Positions 17,951-28,435 of a DNA stretch of 33,099 nucleotides are shown here, piece after piece. The stretch is from the IMG/VR virus record IMGVR_UViG_3300045988_127900, one strand, 5' to 3'. Under the pieces are notes generated by a model. The model searched no databases. It was not told the origin of the DNA and saw only the letters and a program-made list of their open reading frames with translations. Numbering within the stretch: the first letter of the stretch is position 1; each line of letters opens with the position of its first letter. The position numbers and the translations under genes were made by a program. The DNA is from a virus.

Positions 17951-18133
17951 TTAACAAATAATTTGTTCTATTTCTTTTACTGCTTCATTTAGTTTATTAA
18001 CATCTAAAATATCATTCTCAACAATGTTTTCTATTGTCTTTGCATTTAAAATACAGTCAACTATTCTTTGCTTTTCCTCACTCATATCTAAGTACAAAAT
18101 TGCATTTCTTAAAATTCTTTCTTCTCTAGTCAT
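17951..18133 (-). CDS. Hypothetical protein, first gene of the early leftward operon
   Basis: 60 aa. GGAGG RBS. Directly downstream of a consensus promoter. Confidence 0.5.
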   Translation of the reverse strand: MTREERILRNAILYLDMSEEKQRIVDCILNAKTIENIVENDILDVNKLNEAVKEIEQIIC

Positions 18134-18171: not shown

Positions 18172-18200
18172 ATTATAGTGCGTAATAAGGGGCAAGTCAA
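18172..18200 (-). promoter_or_regulatory. Early leftward promoter, TTGACT-17-TATAAT
   Basis: Minus strand reads TTGACT tgccccttattacgcac TATAAT. Confidence 0.7.
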
Positions 18201-18305: not shown

Positions 18306-18659
18306 ATGAATACTAGAATTAGAGACTTGCGAATTGCAGAGGGGCTATCTCAAATCGAATTTGGGAACAAGCTAGGAATGACTAGACACGAAATTTACAA
18401 TCTTGAAAGTGGAAGAACACGAATAAAAGAAAGTGATTTAAAATTAATAACTTCAACATTTAAGGTAAACGAAAAATGGCTAAAAACAGGCGAAGGCGAT
18501 ATGTATACTTTTTCAAACAATAACTTAATAACAGCAGAAGTCTTATGCGCAATAGATAAGAATGAACGTCTTGCTAAAGCAATGTTAAAATTTAGCAAGT
18601 TAAATGACAAAGAATTAGAGGCAATGGAAAAGCTACTAGAATTATTTCAAAAAGAATAA
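18306..18659 (+). CDS. XRE-family HTH repressor (CI-like, no S24 peptidase domain)
   Basis: LSQIEFGNKLGMTRHEIYNLESG is an HTH_3 motif. Divergent from the early operon. Confidence 0.85.
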   Translation: MNTRIRDLRIAEGLSQIEFGNKLGMTRHEIYNLESGRTRIKESDLKLITSTFKVNEKWLKTGEGDMYTFSNNNLITAEVLCAIDKNERLAKAMLKFSKLNDKELEAMEKLLELFQKE

Positions 18660-23012: not shown

Positions 23013-23120
23013 ATGGTGATAAATTTTTTATTGAGTATACTAGCTGGTGTTATATCAGCTTTCATATATGATAAAATAAAAAACCACTCAAACGCGACTA
23101 AGAGTGGTTTAAGAAAATAA
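23013..23120 (+). CDS. Type I toxin-like small membrane peptide (35 aa, not in ORF track)
   Basis: MVINFLLSILAGVISAFIYDKIKNHSNATKSGLRK has one hydrophobic helix and a charged tail. Strong RBS GGAAGGAGGTGG. A convergent antisense RNA overlaps its 3' end. Confidence 0.65.
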   Translation: MVINFLLSILAGVISAFIYDKIKNHSNATKSGLRK

Positions 23121-23180: not shown

Positions 23181-23256
23181 CTTTTATTATATCACATTTT
23201 TTAAAAAAAGATACAATTTTACATCACTTCATATATGTTAATTAGTTTAAAAACAC

Positions 23257-23286
23257 AAAACCACTCAAACGCGACTAAGAGTGGTT
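23257..23286. repeat. 30-bp direct repeat, copy 2; sits in a degenerate toxin-tail remnant
   Basis: Identical to 23080-23109. The surrounding frame reads MLISLKTQNHSNATKSGWEF... with no RBS and no hydrophobic helix. Confidence 0.85.
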
Positions 23287-23358
23287 GGGAATTTGATTTA
23301 AAAATCAAATTCAAAAAGTCTAGATAATTTTTTACTTTAATTGTATTTATATTATTTG

Positions 23359-23420
23359 AATATTGTAATTAACAATATTAATATATTGTTGCAATATTAT
23401 AAAAACAATACTACAATATT
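23359..23420. promoter_or_regulatory. Cluster of AATATTG/CAATATT boxes upstream of parA (candidate centromere/operator)
   Basis: Boxes at 23359, 23373, 23383, 23392, 23406 and 23414, some arranged as inverted pairs. Confidence 0.5.
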
Positions 23421-23457
23421 ATTATAATATTATAAATATAATAATGAGGTGGAGAAA

Positions 23458-24267
23458 ATGGCTAATACAAAGCTACTTACGTACTTTAACATAAAAGGAG
23501 GTATCTATAAGACAACAACGTCTATAATGACAGCGTATGAACTTGCGAAAGATAAAGATAAAAAAATACTCTTATGGGACTTAGATGTACAAGCAAATCT
23601 AACACAATATGTTTATGAAATAAATCATAATGATAATACTACATTAGATATTTTAAAAGGGATTAGTGCTAATGATGCAATAGTCAAGTCACCTAATGAA
23701 AATTACATTAATGTAGACTTAATTCCTTCTGACATACAAATGGCTAGATTTGAACAAGAGCTATCACCTTTACCAGCCAGAGAAAAATTTTTAGCTCGCT
23801 GGTACATGCAAAACTTTAATACTTTGAGTGAGTATGATTATATTATCTGTGATTTATCTCCACGCTACGATTTGACAGCTAAAAATGTGCTTTTCTTAGC
23901 AGATAGTATAATTATTCCAATTCAAGATAAAAACATTTCTTCTTTAAGAGGAGCAGAATTATTTAAACAACTCTGGGATGTTGATAGAACCTATTTTGAT
24001 AAGGAGGATAATATAAAAAGTACTATTTTAGTTGGATTTGAGAAGAAGAAAACTCAAATTAGCGATACTTTCGATTCTTATCTGGAAGGGTTTAACGATA
24101 TGAGAGATATTATGTTAGATACATACATTAGAAAAAATGAGTTTATAGAGAAGGCACTATTAAAAAAACTATCTCTAACAGATTATACAAAAATAACTAA
24201 AGAACATTTCAGCAGACAGGAATTTACTAATATGTTAGAAGAATTGAAAAGAAAAGGAGTGTTATAG
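23458..24267 (+). CDS. parA: ParA-family partition ATPase
   Basis: Deviant Walker A NIKGGIYKTTTS. Preferred start is ATG 23458, after GAGGTGGAG. Confidence 0.85.
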   Translation: MANTKLLTYFNIKGGIYKTTTSIMTAYELAKDKDKKILLWDLDVQANLTQYVYEINHNDNTTLDILKGISANDAIVKSPNENYINVDLIPSDIQMARFEQELSPLPAREKFLARWYMQNFNTLSEYDYIICDLSPRYDLTAKNVLFLADSIIIPIQDKNISSLRGAELFKQLWDVDRTYFDKEDNIKSTILVGFEKKKTQISDTFDSYLEGFNDMRDIMLDTYIRKNEFIEKALLKKLSLTDYTKITKEHFSRQEFTNMLEELKRKGVL

Positions 24268-24600
24268 ATGCCAAGTTTCAACAGAGACCTTTTAGTTGAT
24301 AAGGAAAAACCGATTTTGAAAAATGGAACAATCGCACAAAATGATTCTACAACTACAGACAATAAGACATTAAACATATATAATTTAGTTAATAAGAAAA
24401 GTAAAAAAGTGACTATGAGTGCAACGCTTGATGAAGAACTTGTAAACAAATTAAAATCTTTTTCTATTGATATGAACAGCGACGTTAGTAAATTATTAAG
24501 TGATATACTAACTCAAATTTTATCTGATGTCACTATAAAAGAAGAGAATTTAAATATATACAATGAGAGAAATAGAAGAAATAAGACTAAGAAAAAGTAA
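24268..24600 (+). CDS. Ribbon-helix-helix centromere-binding protein (ParG-like partner of ParA)
   Basis: 110 aa. ATG abuts the parA stop. Disordered N-terminus, then MSATLDEELVNKLKSFSIDMNSDVSKLLSDILTQIL, an RHH pattern. Confidence 0.6.
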   Translation: MPSFNRDLLVDKEKPILKNGTIAQNDSTTTDNKTLNIYNLVNKKSKKVTMSATLDEELVNKLKSFSIDMNSDVSKLLSDILTQILSDVTIKEENLNIYNERNRRNKTKKK

Positions 24601-24614
24601 ATAATATTATATTT

Positions 24615-24697
24615 ATATTGTTTAGATATTACTTAAATATTGTATATATAATATTTAAGTAATATTTTAATATTATTATTACAATATATCAATATTG
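24615..24697. promoter_or_regulatory. Second AATATTG-box cluster, including a 16-bp perfect inverted repeat (24626-24641 / 24650-24665)
   Basis: ATATTACTTAAATATT-gtatatat-AATATTTAAGTAATAT, plus boxes at 24615, 24636 and 24690. Confidence 0.5.
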
Positions 24698-24743
24698 TTT
24701 AAATAATATGTTTTAACTATAATCTAAAAAGGGGTTGGAAAAG

Positions 24744-25025
24744 ATGAATGTTTATTTGCAAATTGGAAAAGAGTTATCTGAAAAAATGACTAAATCTGAA
24801 TTAAATAAGTTTTCACAGGAAGTTGTAAATTTTTTGCGATACGCTGGATTTGATAAGGATATGAAAATTAAACTATTTCAAACAATCATAGAAGCAGTTG
24901 CAAGAAAAAAAGTATCATTACCAAGCGACAGCGAATTTACGGAAGGAATATTGCAAAGCGACGAAGCAGAAATGACAATGAACGTAGGATTTTTAATCGA
25001 AGGATTGAGTTATCATAATAATTAA
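24744..25025 (+). CDS. Hypothetical protein
   Basis: 93 aa from ATG 24744, which is 9 nt after GGGG. The tracked TTG at 24735 has no spacing to the RBS. Confidence 0.5.
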   Translation: MNVYLQIGKELSEKMTKSELNKFSQEVVNFLRYAGFDKDMKIKLFQTIIEAVARKKVSLPSDSEFTEGILQSDEAEMTMNVGFLIEGLSYHNN

Positions 25026-25037
25026 ATCTTTAGCATT

Positions 25038-25076
25038 AAAAAAGCAGTGCATTTATTGAATACACTGCTTTTATTT
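25038..25076. terminator. Bidirectional rho-independent terminator
   Basis: AAGCAGTG-13 nt-CACTGCTT, flanked by A6 and T-rich runs. Confidence 0.65.
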
Positions 25077-25301
25077 CCGTATAGTTAATCTAAAAATAAT
25101 GTGATATTATATCATATAGATATAGATTAAATTGATATTTAAATCCCTTATAGTTAATATAAAATAATTTGATATTATATTATTTCTCTATAAATTAAAT
25201 TGACATTTAAATCCCTCATAGTTAATCTGAAAATTCTTATTACAATATCATTTCTAAATAAATTAAAAAATATTTTAAATCCCTTATAGTTAACCAAAAG
25301 C
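25068..25301 (-). CRISPR. CRISPR-repeat-like tandem array: four 29-nt repeat-like elements at 68-69-bp period, no cas genes; iterons are the alternative
   Basis: Elements at 25068-25096, 25137-25165, 25205-25233 and 25273-25301. Minus-strand forms include ATTTTATATTAACTATAAGGGATTTAAAT. Intervening 39-40-nt segments are related to each other. Confidence 0.4.
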
Positions 25302-25335
25302 GATACTATATACATTAATAATAATACTCTTCTAC

Positions 25336-25536
25336 TTAATTTTCAACTATATTTTGTAATTCTTGTTTACAATTTTCAATGCCTTCACGTAATTTTTCTA
25401 AAAAAGCTGATGAGCTATCATCTATATTTCTTTCAGCGATTTCTTCGAAATTTTCTTTATTGAATTTTTCATAACTATCCCAATTCAAACTTTTATCTTC
25501 CTTTTTCACACCATTTTTCGAACTCTTCATAATCAT
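25336..25536 (-). CDS. Small acidic hypothetical protein
   Basis: 66 aa as tracked (44-nt overlap with the upstream gene). Alternative TTG start at 25486-25488, 8 nt after GGAAG, gives 50 aa and no overlap. Confidence 0.45.
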   Translation of the reverse strand: MIMKSSKNGVKKEDKSLNWDSYEKFNKENFEEIAERNIDDSSSAFLEKLREGIENCKQELQNIVEN

Positions 25537-25807
25537 TTACATGGTAAATTTCTCCAAACATATCGTCTAAATGAGTTGGTGCTTGATTTAATGTGAAAAT
25601 ATTAATTTCTTTGTCATCATCTAAAAGTTTAGCCCAAGTTTGAACTGCTATCGCTTCAACTTTTCCTTGTATATCGATATAAATTTTTATATCATTAGTC
25701 TCTTTGATTAAACAACTTTCTTTAAAAGCTTTTATAGCTTCTTCTTCTATTTTATCTATATTCATATCTATAACTCTTAAAAATCTTCTAGCTTTTTGTT
25801 TATTCAT
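25493..25807 (-). CDS. Acidic hypothetical protein
   Basis: 104 aa. GGAGGA RBS. Lies downstream of the consensus promoter at 25848-25876. Confidence 0.55.
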   Translation of the reverse strand: MNKQKARRFLRVIDMNIDKIEEEAIKAFKESCLIKETNDIKIYIDIQGKVEAIAVQTWAKLLDDDKEINIFTLNQAPTHLDDMFGEIYHVNDYEEFEKWCEKGR

Positions 25808-25904
25808 TTTTTATATCCTCCTTTTGATTATTTCTTTCTTTAATTATATTATAAACGTTTGCGTTTATTAAGTCAATAGTTTTTTAAACTTTTCCGTTTA
25901 TTTC
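25805..25904. repeat. Duplicated ~100-bp promoter/operator/RBS module, copy 1
   Basis: Aligns base-for-base, with few mismatches, to 26978-27075, from the CAT of the start codon through the -35 and beyond. Confidence 0.85.
25848..25876 (-). promoter_or_regulatory. Consensus promoter TTGACT-17-TATAAT with the AAACGTTT palindrome in its spacer
   Basis: Minus strand reads TTGACT taataaacgcaaacgtt TATAAT. Confidence 0.7.
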
Positions 25905-26519
25905 TTTTAAGAATTTTTCTTTGGCTTTTTTGTATGCTTCTTCTGCTTCTCTTATGTTGTCATAGTATCCTAGATTATAATGCATTTTCTTAAATTCTAT
26001 TTGTGCACAGTATTTTCTTTTTTCTTTATTCCAAGAAACGCCTCTAATTTTAGTTTTTGAATTAGAATACGCTTCTGTCTTTTTTATAATAGATAGATTT
26101 GTATCATCAATAATATTTTTTTCTTTATGTACTTTTAACGCTATCTTTGCATTTTTTATATTAGATTCCTTTTTCAAGCATCCACATGATTTAGTTCTAC
26201 CAGTAGTTAAATTGTTTTCTGCTGTCTTAATCTCATTTCCACAATCACACTTACAAGCCCAAATATAGTGACCACTTTTAGCTTTTTTATTAGTGTTCTT
26301 TATTGCTGTTAATCTGCCAAACTTTTTGCCTGTTAAATCATTTTGTTTAAACTGTGTGTTACTTTTCATGCATCCACATGCTTTTATTCTTTTTAAACTA
26401 TCTGCCCTTATCCATTTTTCATTATTGCAATTACTACATTTACATAAGCAATATTTCCTGCCATTTTTTTGTTCTATATCTAGTATTGTAAGATTTTCAA
26501 ATTTATCTCCAATTTTCAT
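25884..26519 (-). CDS. AP2-domain DNA-binding protein with two N-terminal Cys-rich repeats
   Basis: RGVSWNKEKRKYCAQIEFKKMHYNLGYYDNIREAEEAYKKA looks like an AP2 fold. Two repeats of G.KF..LT...C.C.C...CGC. Confidence 0.65.
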   Translation of the reverse strand: MKIGDKFENLTILDIEQKNGRKYCLCKCSNCNNEKWIRADSLKRIKACGCMKSNTQFKQNDLTGKKFGRLTAIKNTNKKAKSGHYIWACKCDCGNEIKTAENNLTTGRTKSCGCLKKESNIKNAKIALKVHKEKNIIDDTNLSIIKKTEAYSNSKTKIRGVSWNKEKRKYCAQIEFKKMHYNLGYYDNIREAEEAYKKAKEKFLKEINGKV

Positions 26520-26530
26520 GTTTTCACTTC

Positions 26531-26980
26531 CTACAGATATTTTATAAACATTTCTTTTATCTTAGTTTCAAATTCTTCTGTTGTTATATATTCATCTTTG
26601 TAGTTTTCTTCTAATTCTTCAACATTTCCATTTTCTTCTAAGTATGTTTCATGCATATAATATAAGTCATAAACTTCATTGAATAAAGAACCATCTACAG
26701 TATATAAATGTTTCTCACAAGTGGCTAAATCTTCGTAACTAGCCCCCTCACCTACATAGCATCCTTCAAAAATATTTATATCGAAATCTTTGAATTGACA
26801 TTCACCTGCAAATTCAAACCAATATTCACATAAATTTATTATAGCATCAACACATTTTTCTTTACTTATTTTATAACAACTAATTCCTGCTTCAAAATGT
26901 TCTCCATCTCCAGTTGCAGAACTTACATGTTCTTTTCCTCTAAAGCCCTTATCGTAATCAAGTCTGATGAATTTTTCCAT
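26531..26980 (-). CDS. Strongly acidic hypothetical protein
   Basis: 149 aa, with roughly 37 Asp+Glu against 14 Lys+Arg. First gene after the consensus promoter at 27017-27045. Confidence 0.55.
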   Translation of the reverse strand: MEKFIRLDYDKGFRGKEHVSSATGDGEHFEAGISCYKISKEKCVDAIINLCEYWFEFAGECQFKDFDINIFEGCYVGEGASYEDLATCEKHLYTVDGSLFNEVYDLYYMHETYLEENGNVEELEENYKDEYITTEEFETKIKEMFIKYL

Positions 26981-27075
26981 TTTTATATCCCCCTTTGTTT
27001 ATCTTTCTTTAATTATATTATAAACGTTTACGTTTATTGAGTCAACACTTTTATTAAACTTTTACGCTTATTTTC
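26978..27075. repeat. Duplicated ~100-bp promoter/operator/RBS module, copy 2
   Basis: See 25805-25904. It also retains a remnant resembling the last codons of the AP2 gene. Confidence 0.85.
27017..27045 (-). promoter_or_regulatory. Consensus promoter TTGACT-17-TATAAT, paralog of 25848-25876
   Basis: Minus strand reads TTGACT caataaacgtaaacgtt TATAAT. Confidence 0.7.
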
Positions 27076-27078
27076 CCC

Positions 27079-27107
27079 TTGTCTTTTTAAACTTTTGCGA
27101 TTATAAT
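27079..27107 (+). promoter_or_regulatory. Promoter TTGTCT-17-TATAAT of the small HTH gene, with an operator-like motif in its spacer
   Basis: Plus strand reads TTGTCT ttttaaacttttgcgat TATAAT. The 18-bp motif AAACTTTTGCGATTATAA lies at 27089-27106. Confidence 0.65.
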
Positions 27108-27129
27108 ATAAGTAAAAGGAGTTGTTAAA

Positions 27130-27339
27130 ATGAAAGATGTATTTGAGGAACTAATCTCTATAAAAGATGCTTGTGAACTTTATAAAAAAGGTGAAAGTAC
27201 GTTAAGACTTAATATAAGAAACGGAAAATTTGTGGAAGGTGTAGACTGTAAAAAATTCGGAACGACATGGGTTTTTAAAAAAACAGCACTTGAAAGAGAA
27301 TATAACAAAAAGGATAAAAAAAGAGAGAGTGGTAACTGA
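27130..27339 (+). CDS. Small HTH DNA-binding protein (excisionase/MerR-like HTH_17 type); candidate regulator of the duplicated promoters
   Basis: 69 aa. ISIKDACELYKKGESTLRLNIRNGKF...GTTWVFKK. AAAGGAG RBS. Confidence 0.65.
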   Translation: MKDVFEELISIKDACELYKKGESTLRLNIRNGKFVEGVDCKKFGTTWVFKKTALEREYNKKDKKRESGN

Positions 27340-27359
27340 TGAAATAGTTACCACTCTCT
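27324..27359. terminator. Terminator of the late/lysis operon (14-bp perfect stem)
   Basis: AGAGAGTGGTAACT-gatgaaat-AGTTACCACTCTCT, with a T-run on the minus strand. Overlaps the last codons of the HTH gene. Confidence 0.75.
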
Positions 27360-27365
27360 ACAAAC

Positions 27366-28178
27366 TTATTTCTTAATAAAATCTAACGCTTTGTAAAGTG
27401 TATCAAATCTATCATTACCTTTTATCATTGTATAATGTTCTTTTGTTATAGAACTTATCTTTTCACATGCTCCACCACCAACAATATATAAATTTTCTGT
27501 CTGACCTGGTACGTAGTCTTTTATATCACATATCAATATTTTCCCATCATTATACCCCCAACCAACTACAGTTGCAGGGATTTTGTCAACTTCTCCACTA
27601 TAAACTATTGTATGTTTGTACATCTCTTTGACTCCCTCATCACCTATATTTTTATTCAATACACCCTCAACAATTAACTTAGCCATTCCTTCATATCCAA
27701 GTTTCTTAGCCTTCTCATAATCTTCTTTATTATCACAGAAGAAACTTTCAATTAATACTGCTGTAGGCTTTGAACTATTTAAGATATATAATCCTTTATC
27801 TAATTTAGCTCTTCTATTTCTAAATACTGTACCTAGCTTATTACATATTCTAGTTGCATATTCTAAACCTTTATTACTATAATATAGAACTTCTGAACCT
27901 TTTCCTTGACCGTTACTTGCATTTAAATGCAACTCTATAAGTAAATCATATCCTCCACTATTAACTCTAGGTATTTTATAAATCTTTTCTTCTGCTTTAG
28001 TTTTAAACTGCTTTTCAGGGCATATTATTACATCTGCCTTATGACCTTCTTTTCTAAATGTATCTGCTAATACTGGTGCAAGAAATTTATTGTATTGGTA
28101 TTCGTTAACTACCCCATCAGCAGAAGTGCATGCACCACTTTTTAAAATACTGTGTCCTACTGTAATACATATTTTCAT
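27366..28178 (-). CDS. Endolysin, N-acetylmuramoyl-L-alanine amidase (Amidase_3), CD27L-like
   Basis: MKICITVGHSILKSGACTSADGVVNEYQYNK...IELHLNASNGQGKGSEVLYY. Long stretches match my recollection of the C. difficile phage endolysin CD27L. Confidence 0.9.
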   Translation of the reverse strand: MKICITVGHSILKSGACTSADGVVNEYQYNKFLAPVLADTFRKEGHKADVIICPEKQFKTKAEEKIYKIPRVNSGGYDLLIELHLNASNGQGKGSEVLYYSNKGLEYATRICNKLGTVFRNRRAKLDKGLYILNSSKPTAVLIESFFCDNKEDYEKAKKLGYEGMAKLIVEGVLNKNIGDEGVKEMYKHTIVYSGEVDKIPATVVGWGYNDGKILICDIKDYVPGQTENLYIVGGGACEKISSITKEHYTMIKGNDRFDTLYKALDFIKK

Positions 28179-28435
28179 TATTTATTTTCCTCCTTCAACT
28201 GTTTGTAAGTTTGATTTATACCTATTGCAACTCCCCAACAGATTATTCCCTGTAAAACTGCACTAGGATTTAATCCTAGCATCCATATTGAGAAACCTAT
28301 ACCAAGTATCAATAACACTACTGGAATATACTTGTTATCTAATTGCTTATATTTCTTGCAACCTGCTCCTATAACATAAAGAGCAGCTACTAAAATTAGT
28401 AACTGCTCTGGTATAAAACTTATTAAATTATCCAT
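28178..28435 (-). CDS. Holin
   Basis: 85 aa with three hydrophobic segments and a charged C-terminus. 1-nt overlap with the endolysin gene. Confidence 0.8.
   Translation of the reverse strand: MDNLISFIPEQLLILVAALYVIGAGCKKYKQLDNKYIPVVLLILGIGFSIWMLGLNPSAVLQGIICWGVAIGINQTYKQLKEENK

What the first reader, a model, noticed from the sequence alone, without database searches (positions are those of the whole stretch)
25336..27339. Candidate anti-defence (Acr/Aca-like) island: strong duplicated promoters, small acidic proteins, HTH and AP2 regulators
Two leftward mini-operons each start from a perfect TTGACT-17-TATAAT promoter.
- Operon A encodes a 149-aa protein with a net charge near -20 and a 211-aa AP2-domain protein.
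- Operon B encodes acidic 104-aa and 50-66-aa proteins followed by the CRISPR-repeat-like array.

A divergent 69-aa HTH gene (27130-27339) carries the same operator-like motif in its own promoter. The layout therefore combines very strong promoters, small acidic proteins of unknown function, and a small HTH repressor whose operator lies in the promoter. This is the known organisation of anti-CRISPR (acr-aca) and other early anti-defence loci. Strongly acidic proteins are typical of DNA mimics such as Ocr or ArdA. I could not recognise a family for any of the three small proteins.
Basis: inference. Interest (0 to 1): 0.8.

Follow-up and report, generated by a model that had tools for sequence, protein, structure and literature searches.

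The report
Published phage anti-CRISPR locus, frameshifted copy
This is the gp26-gp29 accessory island of Clostridioides difficile phage phiCDHM13, proposed and bench-tested as an anti-CRISPR locus in 2023; its anti-CRISPR gene (an AcrIB2 homologue) is split by one extra base, so the finding is real but largely known.

Summary
The window is phage phiCDHM13 (100% identity).

Muzyukina et al. 2023 (PMC10732046) proposed exactly gp26-gp29 of phiCDHM13 as an acr locus. They validated the fused homologue in phiCD38-2 as AcrIB2 and found no phiCDHM13 gene active in their assay.

New here:
- The 104- and 66-aa ORFs are one acrIB2 gene broken by a single extra A (A4 to A5). The split allele occurs on about 160 independent contigs, so it is not a sequencing error.
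- The promoter spacer co-varies with the type of divergent regulator, not with the AP2 gene. This points to the HTH protein, which has a MerR/excisionase-type fold, as the Aca-like repressor.
- The promoter duplication marks insertion of a gp26-AP2 cassette.
- gp26 has a confident predicted fold with no known relative.
- The downstream CRISPR-like array has conserved, mutually similar pseudo-spacers and is found only next to acrIB2. It may be an RNA anti-CRISPR.

The parts
27324..27359 (.). Strong hairpin that ends the lysis operon coming from the right. On the minus strand it is followed by a U7 run. It overlaps the stop codon of the HTH gene and insulates promoter P1 from late transcription.
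   Evidence: Terminator scan. Folding gives -22 to -23 kcal/mol, z -6.8 to -7.8.
27130..27339 (+). 69-aa basic DNA-binding protein (HTH69) with a MerR/excisionase-type winged helix. It is the proposed Aca-like repressor of P1, P2 and its own promoter. It is not annotated in the phiCDHM13 records.
   Evidence: ORF. Pfam HTH_17 and HTH_59 at E about 1e-4, below cut-off. PHROG 2655 'excisionase' at 1e-20. AF2 pLDDT 79.7. Foldseek best matches are TraN, Tn916 Xis, Pukovnik Xis, BldC and MerR N-domains, TM 0.53-0.61. No CDS is annotated here in the phiCDHM13 records. The exact sequence occurs on 467 contigs.
27079..27107 (+). Promoter of the HTH gene (TTGTCT-17-TATAAT). Motif copy O3 occupies its spacer.
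27021..27104 (+). Three direct copies of TAAACNTTTNCGNTTAT, spaced 34 and 33 bp apart: O1 27021-27037, O2 27055-27071, O3 27088-27104. O1 fills the spacer of P1 and O3 fills the spacer of the HTH promoter.
   Evidence: D2; 5 hits in the window against 0.03 expected. The same triplet lies between HTH69 and an intact acrIB2 in phiCD481-1.
27017..27045 (-). Promoter P1 (TTGACT-17-TATAAT). It drives gp26 and gp27 and probably reads through into gp28/29 and the array.
   Evidence: The -35, -10 and 5'UTR are conserved in other phages.
26531..26980 (-). gp26: 149 aa, net charge -21, 17% aromatic residues, orphan family. Candidate anti-defence cargo of unknown target.
   Evidence: charge. No Pfam, NCBIfam or PADLOC family. 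PHROG 18831 of unknown function. 15 clusters at 90% identity and 53 at 50%. AF2 pLDDT 86.8, pTM 0.83. No PDB fold match at E<=0.001. Best BFVD match is an unnamed 140-aa viral protein, E 2e-4, TM 0.44.
25884..26519 (-). gp27: 211 aa, basic (net +26). It has two N-terminal Cys-rich repeats of about 64 aa and a C-terminal AP2-type DNA-binding domain. No nuclease motif was found. Its last six codons are encoded by operator copy O2'.
   Evidence: Pfam AP2 E 8.6e-6, below cut-off. PHROG AP2/HNH-endonuclease families hit residues 148-206. Internal repeat D10. The cluster is named 'AP2 domain-containing protein'. The C-terminus differs in phiCD418, which lacks P2.
25848..25901 (-). Internal promoter P2 (TTGACT-17-TATAAT, 25876..25848), with motif copies O1' (25852-25868, in the spacer) and O2' (25885-25901, overlapping the end of gp27). 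It is a duplicate of the P1/O1/O2 module.
   Evidence: (D3, 87% over 61 nt).
25493..25807 (-). gp28: the N-terminal 101 residues of an AcrIB2 homologue plus 3 out-of-frame residues and a stop. It has a strong Shine-Dalgarno sequence.
   Evidence: 93% identity to AcrIB2 residues 1-101. PHROG 4337 (156 aa) covers gp28 and gp29. RBS AGGAGG.
25502..25506 (-). A5 run that carries the single extra A splitting acrIB2. JD032, phiCD38-2 and CD1801 have A4.
   Evidence: Alignment A1; codon view.
25336..25536 (-). gp29 ORF: the C-terminal part of the AcrIB2 homologue in the +1 frame. None of its three possible start codons has a recognisable ribosome-binding site.
   Evidence: 71% identity (92% positives) to AcrIB2 residues 98-156.
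25318..25346 (-). Candidate weak promoter (TTGAAA-17-TATTAT) overlapping the acrIB2 stop codon, about 10 nt upstream of the first repeat unit. Its hexamers are conserved even where the coding sequence differs.
   Evidence: 10/12; sequences. Function is inferred.
25068..25301 (-). CRISPR-like array in the sense of acrIB2. It has four repeat-like units, each matching 19-25 of 29 positions of the bona fide C. difficile type I-B repeat variants. They are separated by three 39-40-nt pseudo-spacers that resemble each other and are conserved between phages.
   Evidence: (D1, D5).
25034..25072 (.). Bidirectional intrinsic terminator. It ends the leftward unit (hairpin plus U6) and the convergent gp30 gene.
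   Evidence: -16.7 kcal/mol, z -5.1 on the minus strand; -13.4 kcal/mol, z -3.8 on the plus strand.

Best explanation
The region is the anti-CRISPR accessory island of the temperate, ParA-carrying C. difficile myophage phiCDHM13. It lies between the lysis genes and the partition genes.

Transcription unit. One leftward unit of about 2 kb runs from promoter P1 to the terminator at 25034-25072. It carries, in order:
- gp26, an orphan, very acidic protein
- gp27, an AP2-type DNA-binding protein
- P2, an internal copy of the promoter
- an acrIB2 homologue
- a short CRISPR-like repeat array

Regulation (inferred). The divergent 69-aa MerR/excisionase-type protein most likely binds the five direct 17-nt sites. 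Two of these fill the -35/-10 spacers of P1 and P2, and one fills the spacer of its own promoter. On infection the unit would fire strongly and then be damped as the protein accumulates, as Aca proteins do for acr operons.

The acr gene (shown). acrIB2 here is broken by one extra A in an A4 run. It yields a 104-aa N-terminal fragment and a C-terminal ORF without a ribosome-binding site. Full-length protein could arise only from a rare +1 slip of tRNA-Lys from AAA to AAG. This fits the published lack of activity.

The promoter duplication (shown). It is the scar of a gp26-gp27 cassette inserted between the regulator/operator module and acrIB2.

Shown: identity of the phage, homology to AcrIB2, nature of the frameshift, motif statistics, regulator-operator co-variation, predicted folds.
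Inferred: repression by the HTH protein, read-through from P1, any function of gp26, gp27 and the array.
For: - Identity and prior work. The window is 100% identical to phiCDHM13, phiCDHM14 and phiCDHM11. PMC10732046 names gp26-gp29 as a putative acr locus and validates the phiCD38-2 homologue as AcrIB2.
- Homology. gp28 and gp29 are 93% and 71% identical to the two parts of AcrIB2. One PHROG of 156 aa covers both.
- Frameshift. There is a single extra A relative to JD032, phiCD38-2 and CD1801, and only one other substitution relative to JD032. The split 104-aa sequence is on 160 contigs and the 66-aa ORF on 176, against 170 for the intact JD032 allele. gp29 has no Shine-Dalgarno sequence, whereas gp26, gp28 and the HTH gene have strong ones.
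- Operator. The motif gives 5 hits against 0.03 expected, all in one orientation with 33-34 bp spacing, and sits in the spacers of three promoters.
- Co-variation. The -35, -10 and 5'UTR are conserved across phages, while the 16-17-nt spacer changes with the regulator class:
  - HTH69 class: phiCDHM13, JD032, phiCD481-1, CD1801, L116, L182
  - gp24 class: phiCD38-2, AR1074-1, phiCD418, L148, L190, L197
  - phiCD506 class: phiCD506, L120, L220
- Operator belongs to HTH69, not AP2. phiCD481-1 has HTH69 and the motif but no AP2. phiCD418 has gp26 and AP2 but the other regulator and no motif.
- Fold. HTH69 matches Xis, BldC and TraN, proteins known to bind direct repeats head to tail.
- Cassette scar. 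The last six codons of AP2 are operator copy O2', and phiCD418's AP2 ends differently.
- Unit boundaries. Terminators lie at both ends and none in between.
- gp26-AP2 linkage. The pair recurs at 64% and 39% identity in an unrelated phage, between parA and the endolysin gene.
Against: - No phiCDHM13 gene protected a targeted plasmid in C. difficile 630 delta-erm (PMC10732046, data not shown there). Anti-CRISPR activity of this particular copy is therefore unproven and probably lost.
- Repression by HTH69 is untested. MerR-type proteins can also activate transcription.
- In phiCD38-2 lysogens the homologous operon is reported to be highly transcribed, so control may be only partial.
- The regulator classes are few (three) and many of the loci are close relatives. 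The co-variation therefore rests on a handful of independent recombination events.
- In the gp24 class a palindrome just upstream of the -35 (TCAAAG-N6-CTTTGA) may be the true operator, rather than the spacer.
- Promoter consensus matches of this quality are not rarer than chance in this genome.
Confidence: 0.7

Rival explanations
1. The split AcrIB2 is still functional. Either it acts as a two-piece protein, or it is made as a fusion by programmed +1 frameshifting at AAA-G, as the 2023 authors suggested.
For: - The split allele is as common as the intact one: 160-176 contigs against 170. A second 104-aa variant with one substitution exists.
- A +1 slip of tRNA-Lys from AAA to AAG would recreate exactly the wild-type sequence EKEDKSL.
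- The split falls in a predicted unstructured linker (PMC10732046).
Against: - The gp28-gp29 pair was inactive in the published assay.
- There is no slow or rare codon, no upstream Shine-Dalgarno-like stimulator and no structure at the site.
- gp29 has no ribosome-binding site.
- The intact and split genes differ by one substitution only. The lesion is therefore recent, and its abundance may reflect clonal spread of one prophage.
Confidence: 0.15
2. The AP2 protein gp27, not the 69-aa HTH protein, is the regulator (Aca) of the locus. The HTH protein would instead be an excisionase-like or packaging-related factor.
For: - AP2 genes are often found in acr loci, and gp27 was proposed as the Aca (PMC10732046).
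- HTH69's best PHROG is labelled 'excisionase'.
- The fold matches include Xis proteins and small-terminase N-domains.
Against: - The motif travels with HTH69 and not with AP2. phiCD481-1 has the motif and HTH69 without AP2; phiCD418 has AP2 with no motif.
- One motif copy lies in HTH69's own promoter.
- The only 'integrase' annotated in the genome is a 167-aa product.
Confidence: 0.1
3. The island is an ordinary moron or lysogenic-conversion cluster. gp26 and gp27 are unrelated to defence, and only a decaying acr gene links the region to anti-defence.
For: - The region occupies the slot between the lysis and lysogeny genes, where C. difficile phages carry variable accessory genes.
- gp26 was negative in the anti-CRISPR assay.
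- gp26 shows no fold or family link to any known anti-defence protein.
Against: - The variable slot always ends in acrIB2 and is always under the same regulated promoter.
- Its cargo proteins are mostly small and acidic.
- gp26 homologues lie among small early or accessory genes of other phages.
Confidence: 0.2
4. The repeat array downstream of acrIB2 is a conventional phage CRISPR mini-array. It would use host Cas proteins against competing phages, as proposed for phiCD211.
For: - The repeats match 19-25 of 29 positions of genuine C. difficile repeat variants, in the same orientation as the flanking transcription.
- The phiCD211 copy is annotated as CRISPR. Its spacers are said to target known C. 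difficile phages.
Against: - The pseudo-spacers are 54-79% identical to each other, against a mean of 31% (maximum 49%) in genuine arrays.
- They are the same in phages of different genera.
- All C. difficile phage records matched carry this array (at the homologous position in those inspected); no match in a phage lacking it.
- No full-length match was found in about 1 Mb of prophage contigs.
- A protective array placed beside a gene that disables the same Cas machinery is paradoxical.
Confidence: 0.15

Closest known systems
acrIB2 locus of phage phiCD38-2 (Muzyukina et al. 2023, PMC10732046)
   Same: - The acr gene is homologous: 93% and 71% identity over the two parts.
- The position is the same, between the endolysin gene and the gp30/parA genes.
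- The leftward promoter core and 5'UTR are the same.
- A divergent small regulator gene is present.
- The same CRISPR-like array and terminator follow.
   Different: - The acr gene here is split by a 1-nt insertion.
- The upstream cargo is gp26 plus AP2, not phiCD38-2 gp25 and gp26.
- The regulator is of a different class: a MerR/Xis-type 69-aa protein instead of the 70-aa gp24.
- The promoter spacer differs accordingly.
- This locus has an extra internal promoter copy.
acr-aca operons of Pseudomonas, Pectobacterium and Listeria phages (Aca1/Aca2-type repression of the acr promoter; established knowledge, and the introduction of PMC10732046)
   Same: - A strong promoter drives small acidic inhibitor genes.
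- A small DNA-binding protein has repeated sites that overlap the promoter.
- Autoregulation is implied.
   Different: - The regulator is transcribed divergently rather than co-transcribed downstream.
- The regulator's fold is a MerR/excisionase winged helix, not an XRE-type HTH.
- The sites are direct repeats 33-34 bp apart rather than inverted repeats.
- Nothing has been tested biochemically.
acr-racr loci, e.g. acrIC5-racrIC1 (Camara-Wilpert et al. 2023, PMC10651486)
   Same: - CRISPR-repeat-like units without real spacers lie immediately next to an acr gene in a phage.
- A promoter-like site lies just upstream.
- Some relatives (phiCD481-1, phiCD506) carry only a solitary repeat unit.
   Different: - Here there are up to four units with conserved inter-repeat segments, which is more than a solitary repeat.
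- The system is type I-B, which does not occur in that paper's main text.
- No expression or inhibition data exist.
DNA-mimic anti-restriction proteins Ocr and ArdA
   Same: gp26 is small and strongly acidic (net -21, pI 4.4) and is encoded in an early or accessory position.
   Different: - gp26 shows no sequence or fold similarity. Foldseek against the PDB gave no match at E<=0.001 and TM scores of 0.3 or less.
- The predicted fold is a mixed beta-sheet/helix domain with conserved Cys, His and aromatic positions.

Membership tests
AcrIB2 (type I-B anti-CRISPR, phiCD38-2 gp27) | Sequence homology over the whole 156-aa protein | tested here: met
   gp28 is 93% identical over AcrIB2 residues 1-101 and gp29 is 71% identical (92% positives) over residues 98-156. 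PHROG 4337 covers both. The AcrIB2 sequence was checked against Table S5 of the paper.
AcrIB2 (type I-B anti-CRISPR, phiCD38-2 gp27) | A single intact reading frame of about 156 codons | tested here: not met
   One extra A at 25502-25506 shifts the frame, giving a stop after 104 codons.
AcrIB2 (type I-B anti-CRISPR, phiCD38-2 gp27) | Inhibits C. difficile type I-B interference | not testable with these tools
   The published assay of the phiCDHM13 genes was negative. Table S4 lists 'double orf, Non-functional'.
Aca (anti-CRISPR-associated transcriptional regulator) | Small DNA-binding protein encoded next to an acr gene | tested here: met
   HTH69 lies 150 bp from gp26, divergent, and directly beside an intact acrIB2 in phiCD481-1.
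Aca (anti-CRISPR-associated transcriptional regulator) | Binds repeats overlapping the acr promoter and represses it | not testable with these tools
   The evidence is comparative only. Five motif copies lie in three promoter spacers or their flanks, and the regulator class co-varies with the spacer.
Aca (anti-CRISPR-associated transcriptional regulator) | Homology to a named Aca family | not tested
   No Aca profile library was available. Pfam gave only HTH_17 and HTH_59, below cut-off. There was no PDB sequence match. The fold class is MerR/Xis.
AP2 DNA-binding domain (PF00847), gp27 | Match to the Pfam model above the gathering score | tested here: inconclusive
   E 8.6e-6, but 26.4 bits against a cut-off of 33.3. 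It is supported by several PHROG families on residues 148-206 and by NCBI's name for the cluster.
Ocr/ArdA-type DNA mimics, gp26 | Strongly acidic small protein | tested here: met
   Net charge -21, pI 4.37.
Ocr/ArdA-type DNA mimics, gp26 | Sequence or fold similarity to a known mimic | tested here: not met
   No family hit. PDB sequence search had a best E of 0.3. Foldseek against the PDB found nothing at E<=0.001.
CRISPR array (C. difficile type I-B) | Repeats matching the host repeat | tested here: inconclusive
   The units match 19-25 of 29 positions of the genuine repeat variants. Rfam CRISPR-DR14 scored 30.8 bits against a cut-off of 45.
CRISPR array (C. difficile type I-B) | Unrelated spacers acquired from foreign DNA | tested here: not met
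   The pseudo-spacers are 54-79% alike and conserved between phages. All C. difficile phage records matched carry this array (at the homologous position in those inspected); none lacks it.
Racr / solitary repeat unit RNA anti-CRISPR | Phage-encoded repeat mimic near a promoter and often near acr genes | tested here: met
   The array starts 35 nt after the acrIB2 stop codon and has a promoter-like site at 25346..25318. phiCD481-1 and phiCD506 carry a single unit.
Racr / solitary repeat unit RNA anti-CRISPR | Expressed as a small RNA that binds Cas proteins and inhibits interference | not testable with these tools
   No expression or binding data are available. Folding of the repeats was uninformative.

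The most novel reading that the evidence does not exclude
The acrIB2 gene of C. difficile phages is the protein half of a two-component anti-CRISPR module.
- The CRISPR-like array that always follows acrIB2 would be a type I-B RNA anti-CRISPR, either a decoy or a regulatory crRNA mimic. Its sequence includes the pseudo-spacers. Between phiCDHM13 and phiCD211 the array region is better conserved than the flanking coding genes (90% against 72% and 83%).
- The RNA would be made from the same promoter system, which is held in check by a new MerR/excisionase-type Aca family.
- In phiCDHM13-type prophages, where the protein half is broken, the RNA half, gp26, or both may carry the anti-defence load.
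Probability: 0.3. Interest if true: 0.65.

Novelty: already known. Interest (0 to 1): 0.3.

Why it matters
C. difficile relies on an active type I-B CRISPR system, and phage-based therapies against it must get past that system. AcrIB2 is the only validated inhibitor.

The core of this finding, that phiCDHM13 gp26-gp29 is a candidate acr locus, is already published and was tested in 2023. It therefore adds little by itself. Three things from this check are useful:
- A concrete, testable regulatory model. A 17-nt operator occurs five times, with a MerR/Xis-type repressor. This could supply a native, tunable promoter/repressor pair for C. difficile.
- A simple explanation for the negative assay. 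One extra A is responsible, and a natural intact control (JD032_24) differs by that base and one synonymous change.
- The observation that the repeat array tied to acrIB2 does not behave like an immune array. If it proves to be an RNA anti-CRISPR, the published 'inter-phage warfare' reading would need revising.

Tried and rejected
- Rfam over the whole window at gathering scores found nothing. At the E-value threshold there was only a sub-threshold CRISPR-DR14 hit and a spurious miRNA hit on the terminator hairpin.
- PDB sequence searches with the gp26 profile, gp27 and HTH69 gave no significant match.
- NCBIfam and PADLOC gave nothing for gp26, gp27 or the acr homologue. HTH69 had only a weak 'mad1' hit (E 6e-4), which I did not rely on.
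- Pfam scans of the larger gp26-family members (284 and 255 aa), looking for an informative fused domain, found none.
- Folding genuine and phage repeat units to look for a shared Cas6 hairpin was uninformative. All are essentially unstructured.
- A collection scan with the conserved promoter core also returned mostly chance hits. Only the loci that also encode the locus proteins were used.
- A text search for the C. difficile repeat sequence in papers found nothing. The repeat was instead recovered from prophage contigs.
- I rejected a sequencing error as the cause of the split.
- I rejected a -1 frameshift, because it leads into the wrong frame.
- I rejected the idea that the array is the par centromere. 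Separate AT-rich inverted repeats flank parA-gp31 (I1-I5), and the array units clearly derive from the CRISPR repeat.

Full report
**Identity of the window.**
- The stretch 23400-28200 is 100% identical to Clostridium phages phiCDHM13, phiCDHM14 and phiCDHM11 (genus Sherbrookevirus) and 97% identical to JD032.
- They lie between the endolysin gene gp25 and gp30/gp31/parA.
- The 69-aa HTH gene is not annotated in phiCDHM13. It is annotated in JD032 and phiCD481-1.

**Check of the observation.**
- The two leftward TTGACT-17-TATAAT sites are at 27045..27017 and 25876..25848. The HTH gene has TTGTCT-17-TATAAT at 27079..27107.
- A consensus match of 11/12 is not by itself unusual in this AT-rich genome: 4 sites in the window against 2.8 +/- 1.7 in shuffles.
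- The real signal is threefold:
  - The two sites sit in a duplicated 61-nt block (87% identity, D3).
  - The block is conserved upstream of homologous genes in other phages.
  - A 17-nt motif, TAAACNTTTNCGNTTAT, occurs exactly five times in 33 kb, against 0.03 expected. All copies are on one strand and all in these two regions, with 33-34 bp between neighbours.
- The charge estimates hold: gp26 has net -21 and pI 4.37.

**Prior work.**
- A full-text search found Muzyukina et al. 2023 (mSphere, PMC10732046). Their guilt-by-association chain started from an AP2 protein encoded next to an AcrIC5 homologue and led to phiCDHM13 gp27.
- They proposed gp26 and gp28/gp29 as candidate anti-CRISPRs and gp27 as a candidate Aca.
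- They cloned all four phiCDHM13 genes. None restored conjugation of a CRISPR-targeted plasmid.
- The fused gp28-gp29 homologue of phiCD38-2 did restore it, and was named AcrIB2.
- Their Table S4 lists phiCDHM13 as 'double orf, Non-functional'.

**The two small acidic ORFs are one broken gene.**
- PHROG 4337 (156 aa) covers gp28 and gp29 end to end.
- gp28 is 93% identical to AcrIB2 residues 1-101. gp29 is 71% identical (92% positives) to residues 98-156.
- A DNA alignment with JD032, phiCD38-2 and CD1801 shows a single extra A: GTGAAAAAGG against GTGAAAAGG, at window 25502-25506. Only one other substitution separates the gene from the intact JD032 gene.
- The split is not a sequencing error. 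The exact 104-aa product is on 160 contigs and the 66-aa ORF on 176, including complete C. difficile chromosomes. The intact JD032 allele is on 170.
- gp29 has no Shine-Dalgarno sequence before any of its three possible starts, whereas gp26, gp28 and the HTH gene have strong ones.
- A +1 slip of tRNA-Lys from AAA to AAG would recreate the wild-type sequence exactly. No stimulatory element is visible.
- I conclude that this copy is most likely a recent loss-of-function allele. That explains the negative assay.

**Regulation.**
- Across relatives the leftward promoter keeps its -35, its -10 and the following 5'UTR. The 16-17 nt between the hexamers change together with the type of small gene transcribed divergently:
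  - ACGTTTRCGTTTATT goes with HTH69 (phiCDHM13, JD032, phiCD481-1, CD1801, and IMG/VR loci L116 and L182).
  - TCTATATGAATATCT goes with the unrelated 70-aa gp24 type (phiCD38-2, AR1074-1, phiCD418, L148, L190, L197).
  - CGTCTAGMCGTGCAT goes with the 160-aa phiCD506 type (phiCD506, L120, L220).
- The cargo behind the promoter varies independently of the regulator:
  - phiCD481-1 has HTH69 and three motif copies directly in front of an intact acrIB2, with no AP2 gene.
  - phiCD418 has gp26, AP2 and acrIB2 but the gp24-type regulator and no motif.
- The motif therefore belongs to HTH69, not to AP2.
- In phiCDHM13, motif copy O1 fills the P1 spacer, O1' fills the P2 spacer and O3 fills the spacer of the HTH promoter. 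This geometry would occlude RNA polymerase and gives autoregulation.
- The AF2 model of HTH69 has pLDDT 79.7. It matches TraN of pIP501, the Tn916 and Pukovnik excisionases, BldC, RdfS and MerR N-domains, with TM 0.53-0.61. From general knowledge, several of these bind direct repeats head to tail, which fits five same-sense sites three helical turns apart.
- All of this is inference from comparison. No binding was tested.

**Origin of the duplicated promoter.**
- phiCD481-1 shows the simplest state: regulator, operators, then acrIB2.
- In phiCDHM13, JD032 and CD1801 a cassette sits between them, and a second copy of the promoter with two operators precedes acrIB2. The cassette is gp26 plus AP2, or a 99-aa protein plus AP2.
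- The last six codons of AP2 (EINGKV, stop) are encoded by operator copy O2'. phiCD418's AP2, which lacks P2, ends differently.
- The duplication is therefore a recombination scar, and the conserved promoter core acts as the junction for cargo exchange.
- No terminator lies between P1 and 25072. Strong hairpins bound the unit at 27324-27359 and 25034-25072.

**gp26.**
- It has no Pfam, NCBIfam or PADLOC family.
- It forms a small orphan family: 15 clusters at 90% identity and 53 at 50% identity, mostly stand-alone proteins of 140-160 aa. The longer members carry no known fused domain.
- The AF2 model is confident (pLDDT 86.8, pTM 0.83). It finds no PDB match at E<=0.001. It finds only one unnamed 140-aa viral protein in BFVD (E 2e-4, TM 0.44).
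- It is not detectably related to Ocr, ArdA or any solved Acr.
- Homologues lie in runs of small accessory genes of other phages.
- In one unrelated phage a 64%-identical homologue again sits near an AP2 gene, between parA and the endolysin gene.
- The function remains open. Anti-defence is plausible from context only.

**The repeat array.**
- On the acr strand, 35 nt after the stop codon, there are four units (25301-25068) matching 19-25 of 29 positions of the genuine C. difficile repeat variants. I recovered the genuine repeat from 95 prophage contigs.
- Genuine arrays have spacers about 31% identical to each other (maximum 49%). The three inter-repeat segments here are 54-79% identical to each other, and they recur unchanged in phages of several lineages (phiCD38-2, phiCD211, AR1074-1, phiCD418, CD1801). 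The number of units ranges from one to four.
- Between phiCDHM13 and phiCD211 the array region is 90% identical, against 72% for acrIB2 and 83% for gp30.
- All C. difficile phage records that match the array query carry this array, at the homologous position in those inspected; no C. difficile phage lacking it matched. The 'targets' reported for phiCD211 may therefore be array-to-array matches.
- None of the contigs with genuine arrays carries acrIB2 or gp30.
- This behaviour fits a conserved functional RNA element linked to acrIB2, in the manner of acr-racr loci (PMC10651486), better than it fits an immune array. Nothing about its expression is known.

**Verdict.**
- The added value is the frameshift diagnosis, the operator/regulator assignment, the cassette history and the odd array.
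- I score interest as low to moderate and file the core finding as already known.

Noticed in passing
window 23013-23120 (+) and 23235-23327 (+): Two short ORFs (35 and 30 aa) hit NCBIfam NF047374, 'C. difficile type I toxin-antitoxin system toxin'. One matches the N-terminal part of the model (E 1.7e-12) and the other the C-terminal part (E 1.3e-9). They share a 37-nt direct repeat (23073-23109 and 23250-23286, 95% identical). This looks like a split or duplicated type I toxin gene upstream of parA, about 2 kb from the CRISPR-like array.
   Followed up: partly
window 25068-25301 (-): The CRISPR-like array next to acrIB2 has pseudo-spacers that are paralogous to each other and conserved across phage genera. 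Between phiCDHM13 and phiCD211 it is better conserved than the flanking genes. It never occurs with genuine prophage arrays. It may be an RNA anti-CRISPR or a regulatory mimic.
   Followed up: partly
window 23370-23443 and 24605-24678: AT-rich 74-nt inverted repeats (76% complementary), with internal 33-nt tandem units, flank the parA-gp31 operon. gp31 has a weak Arc-like repressor hit. These are candidate centromere or operator sites of the partition system.
   Followed up: no
window 25885-25901 / 25884-25904: The last six codons and the stop of the AP2 gene are formed by an operator copy. The AP2 homologue in phiCD418 has a different C-terminus. This is a visible recombination junction.
   Followed up: yes
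window 27130-27339 (+): The 69-aa HTH gene has no CDS feature in either phiCDHM13 record, although the identical gene is annotated in JD032 and phiCD481-1 and the exact protein is on 467 contigs.
   Followed up: yes
window 18172-18200 (-): A third TTGACT-17-TATAAT site lies upstream of a 60-aa ORF (17951-18133, -) and is divergent from a 117-aa ORF (18306-18659, +). By its position relative to the ORFs annotated nearby, this is probably the lysis-lysogeny switch region. Its spacer is unrelated to the 17-nt motif.
   Followed up: no
L010 6001-6444 and neighbours: A 57%-identical gp26 homologue lies on a 77-kb metagenomic element, beside an HTH gene and a few genes from a Csf1/Csf3/PAPS-reductase cluster that looks like a type IV-B CRISPR-Cas system.
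   Followed up: no
L109 2022-3422: In an unrelated phage contig a gp26 homologue (64% identity) and an AP2 protein (39%) again lie together between parA and an Amidase_2 endolysin gene. This suggests that gp26 and AP2 are functionally linked.
   Followed up: partly
window 24735-25025 (+): gp30 (96 aa, PHROG 4021, function unknown) is convergent with the acr unit and shares its terminator. It accompanies acrIB2 in nearly all phages examined. The 2023 paper also remarks on it.
   Followed up: no
window 25109-25124 (pseudo-spacer 3, nt 13-28): A 16-nt exact match (TATATCTATATGATAT) to eight C. difficile prophage contigs that carry genuine arrays (L021, L051, L053, L060, L063, L078, L087, L097). 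It lies in the middle of the unit rather than the seed, so it may be chance or a shared binding site.
   Followed up: no
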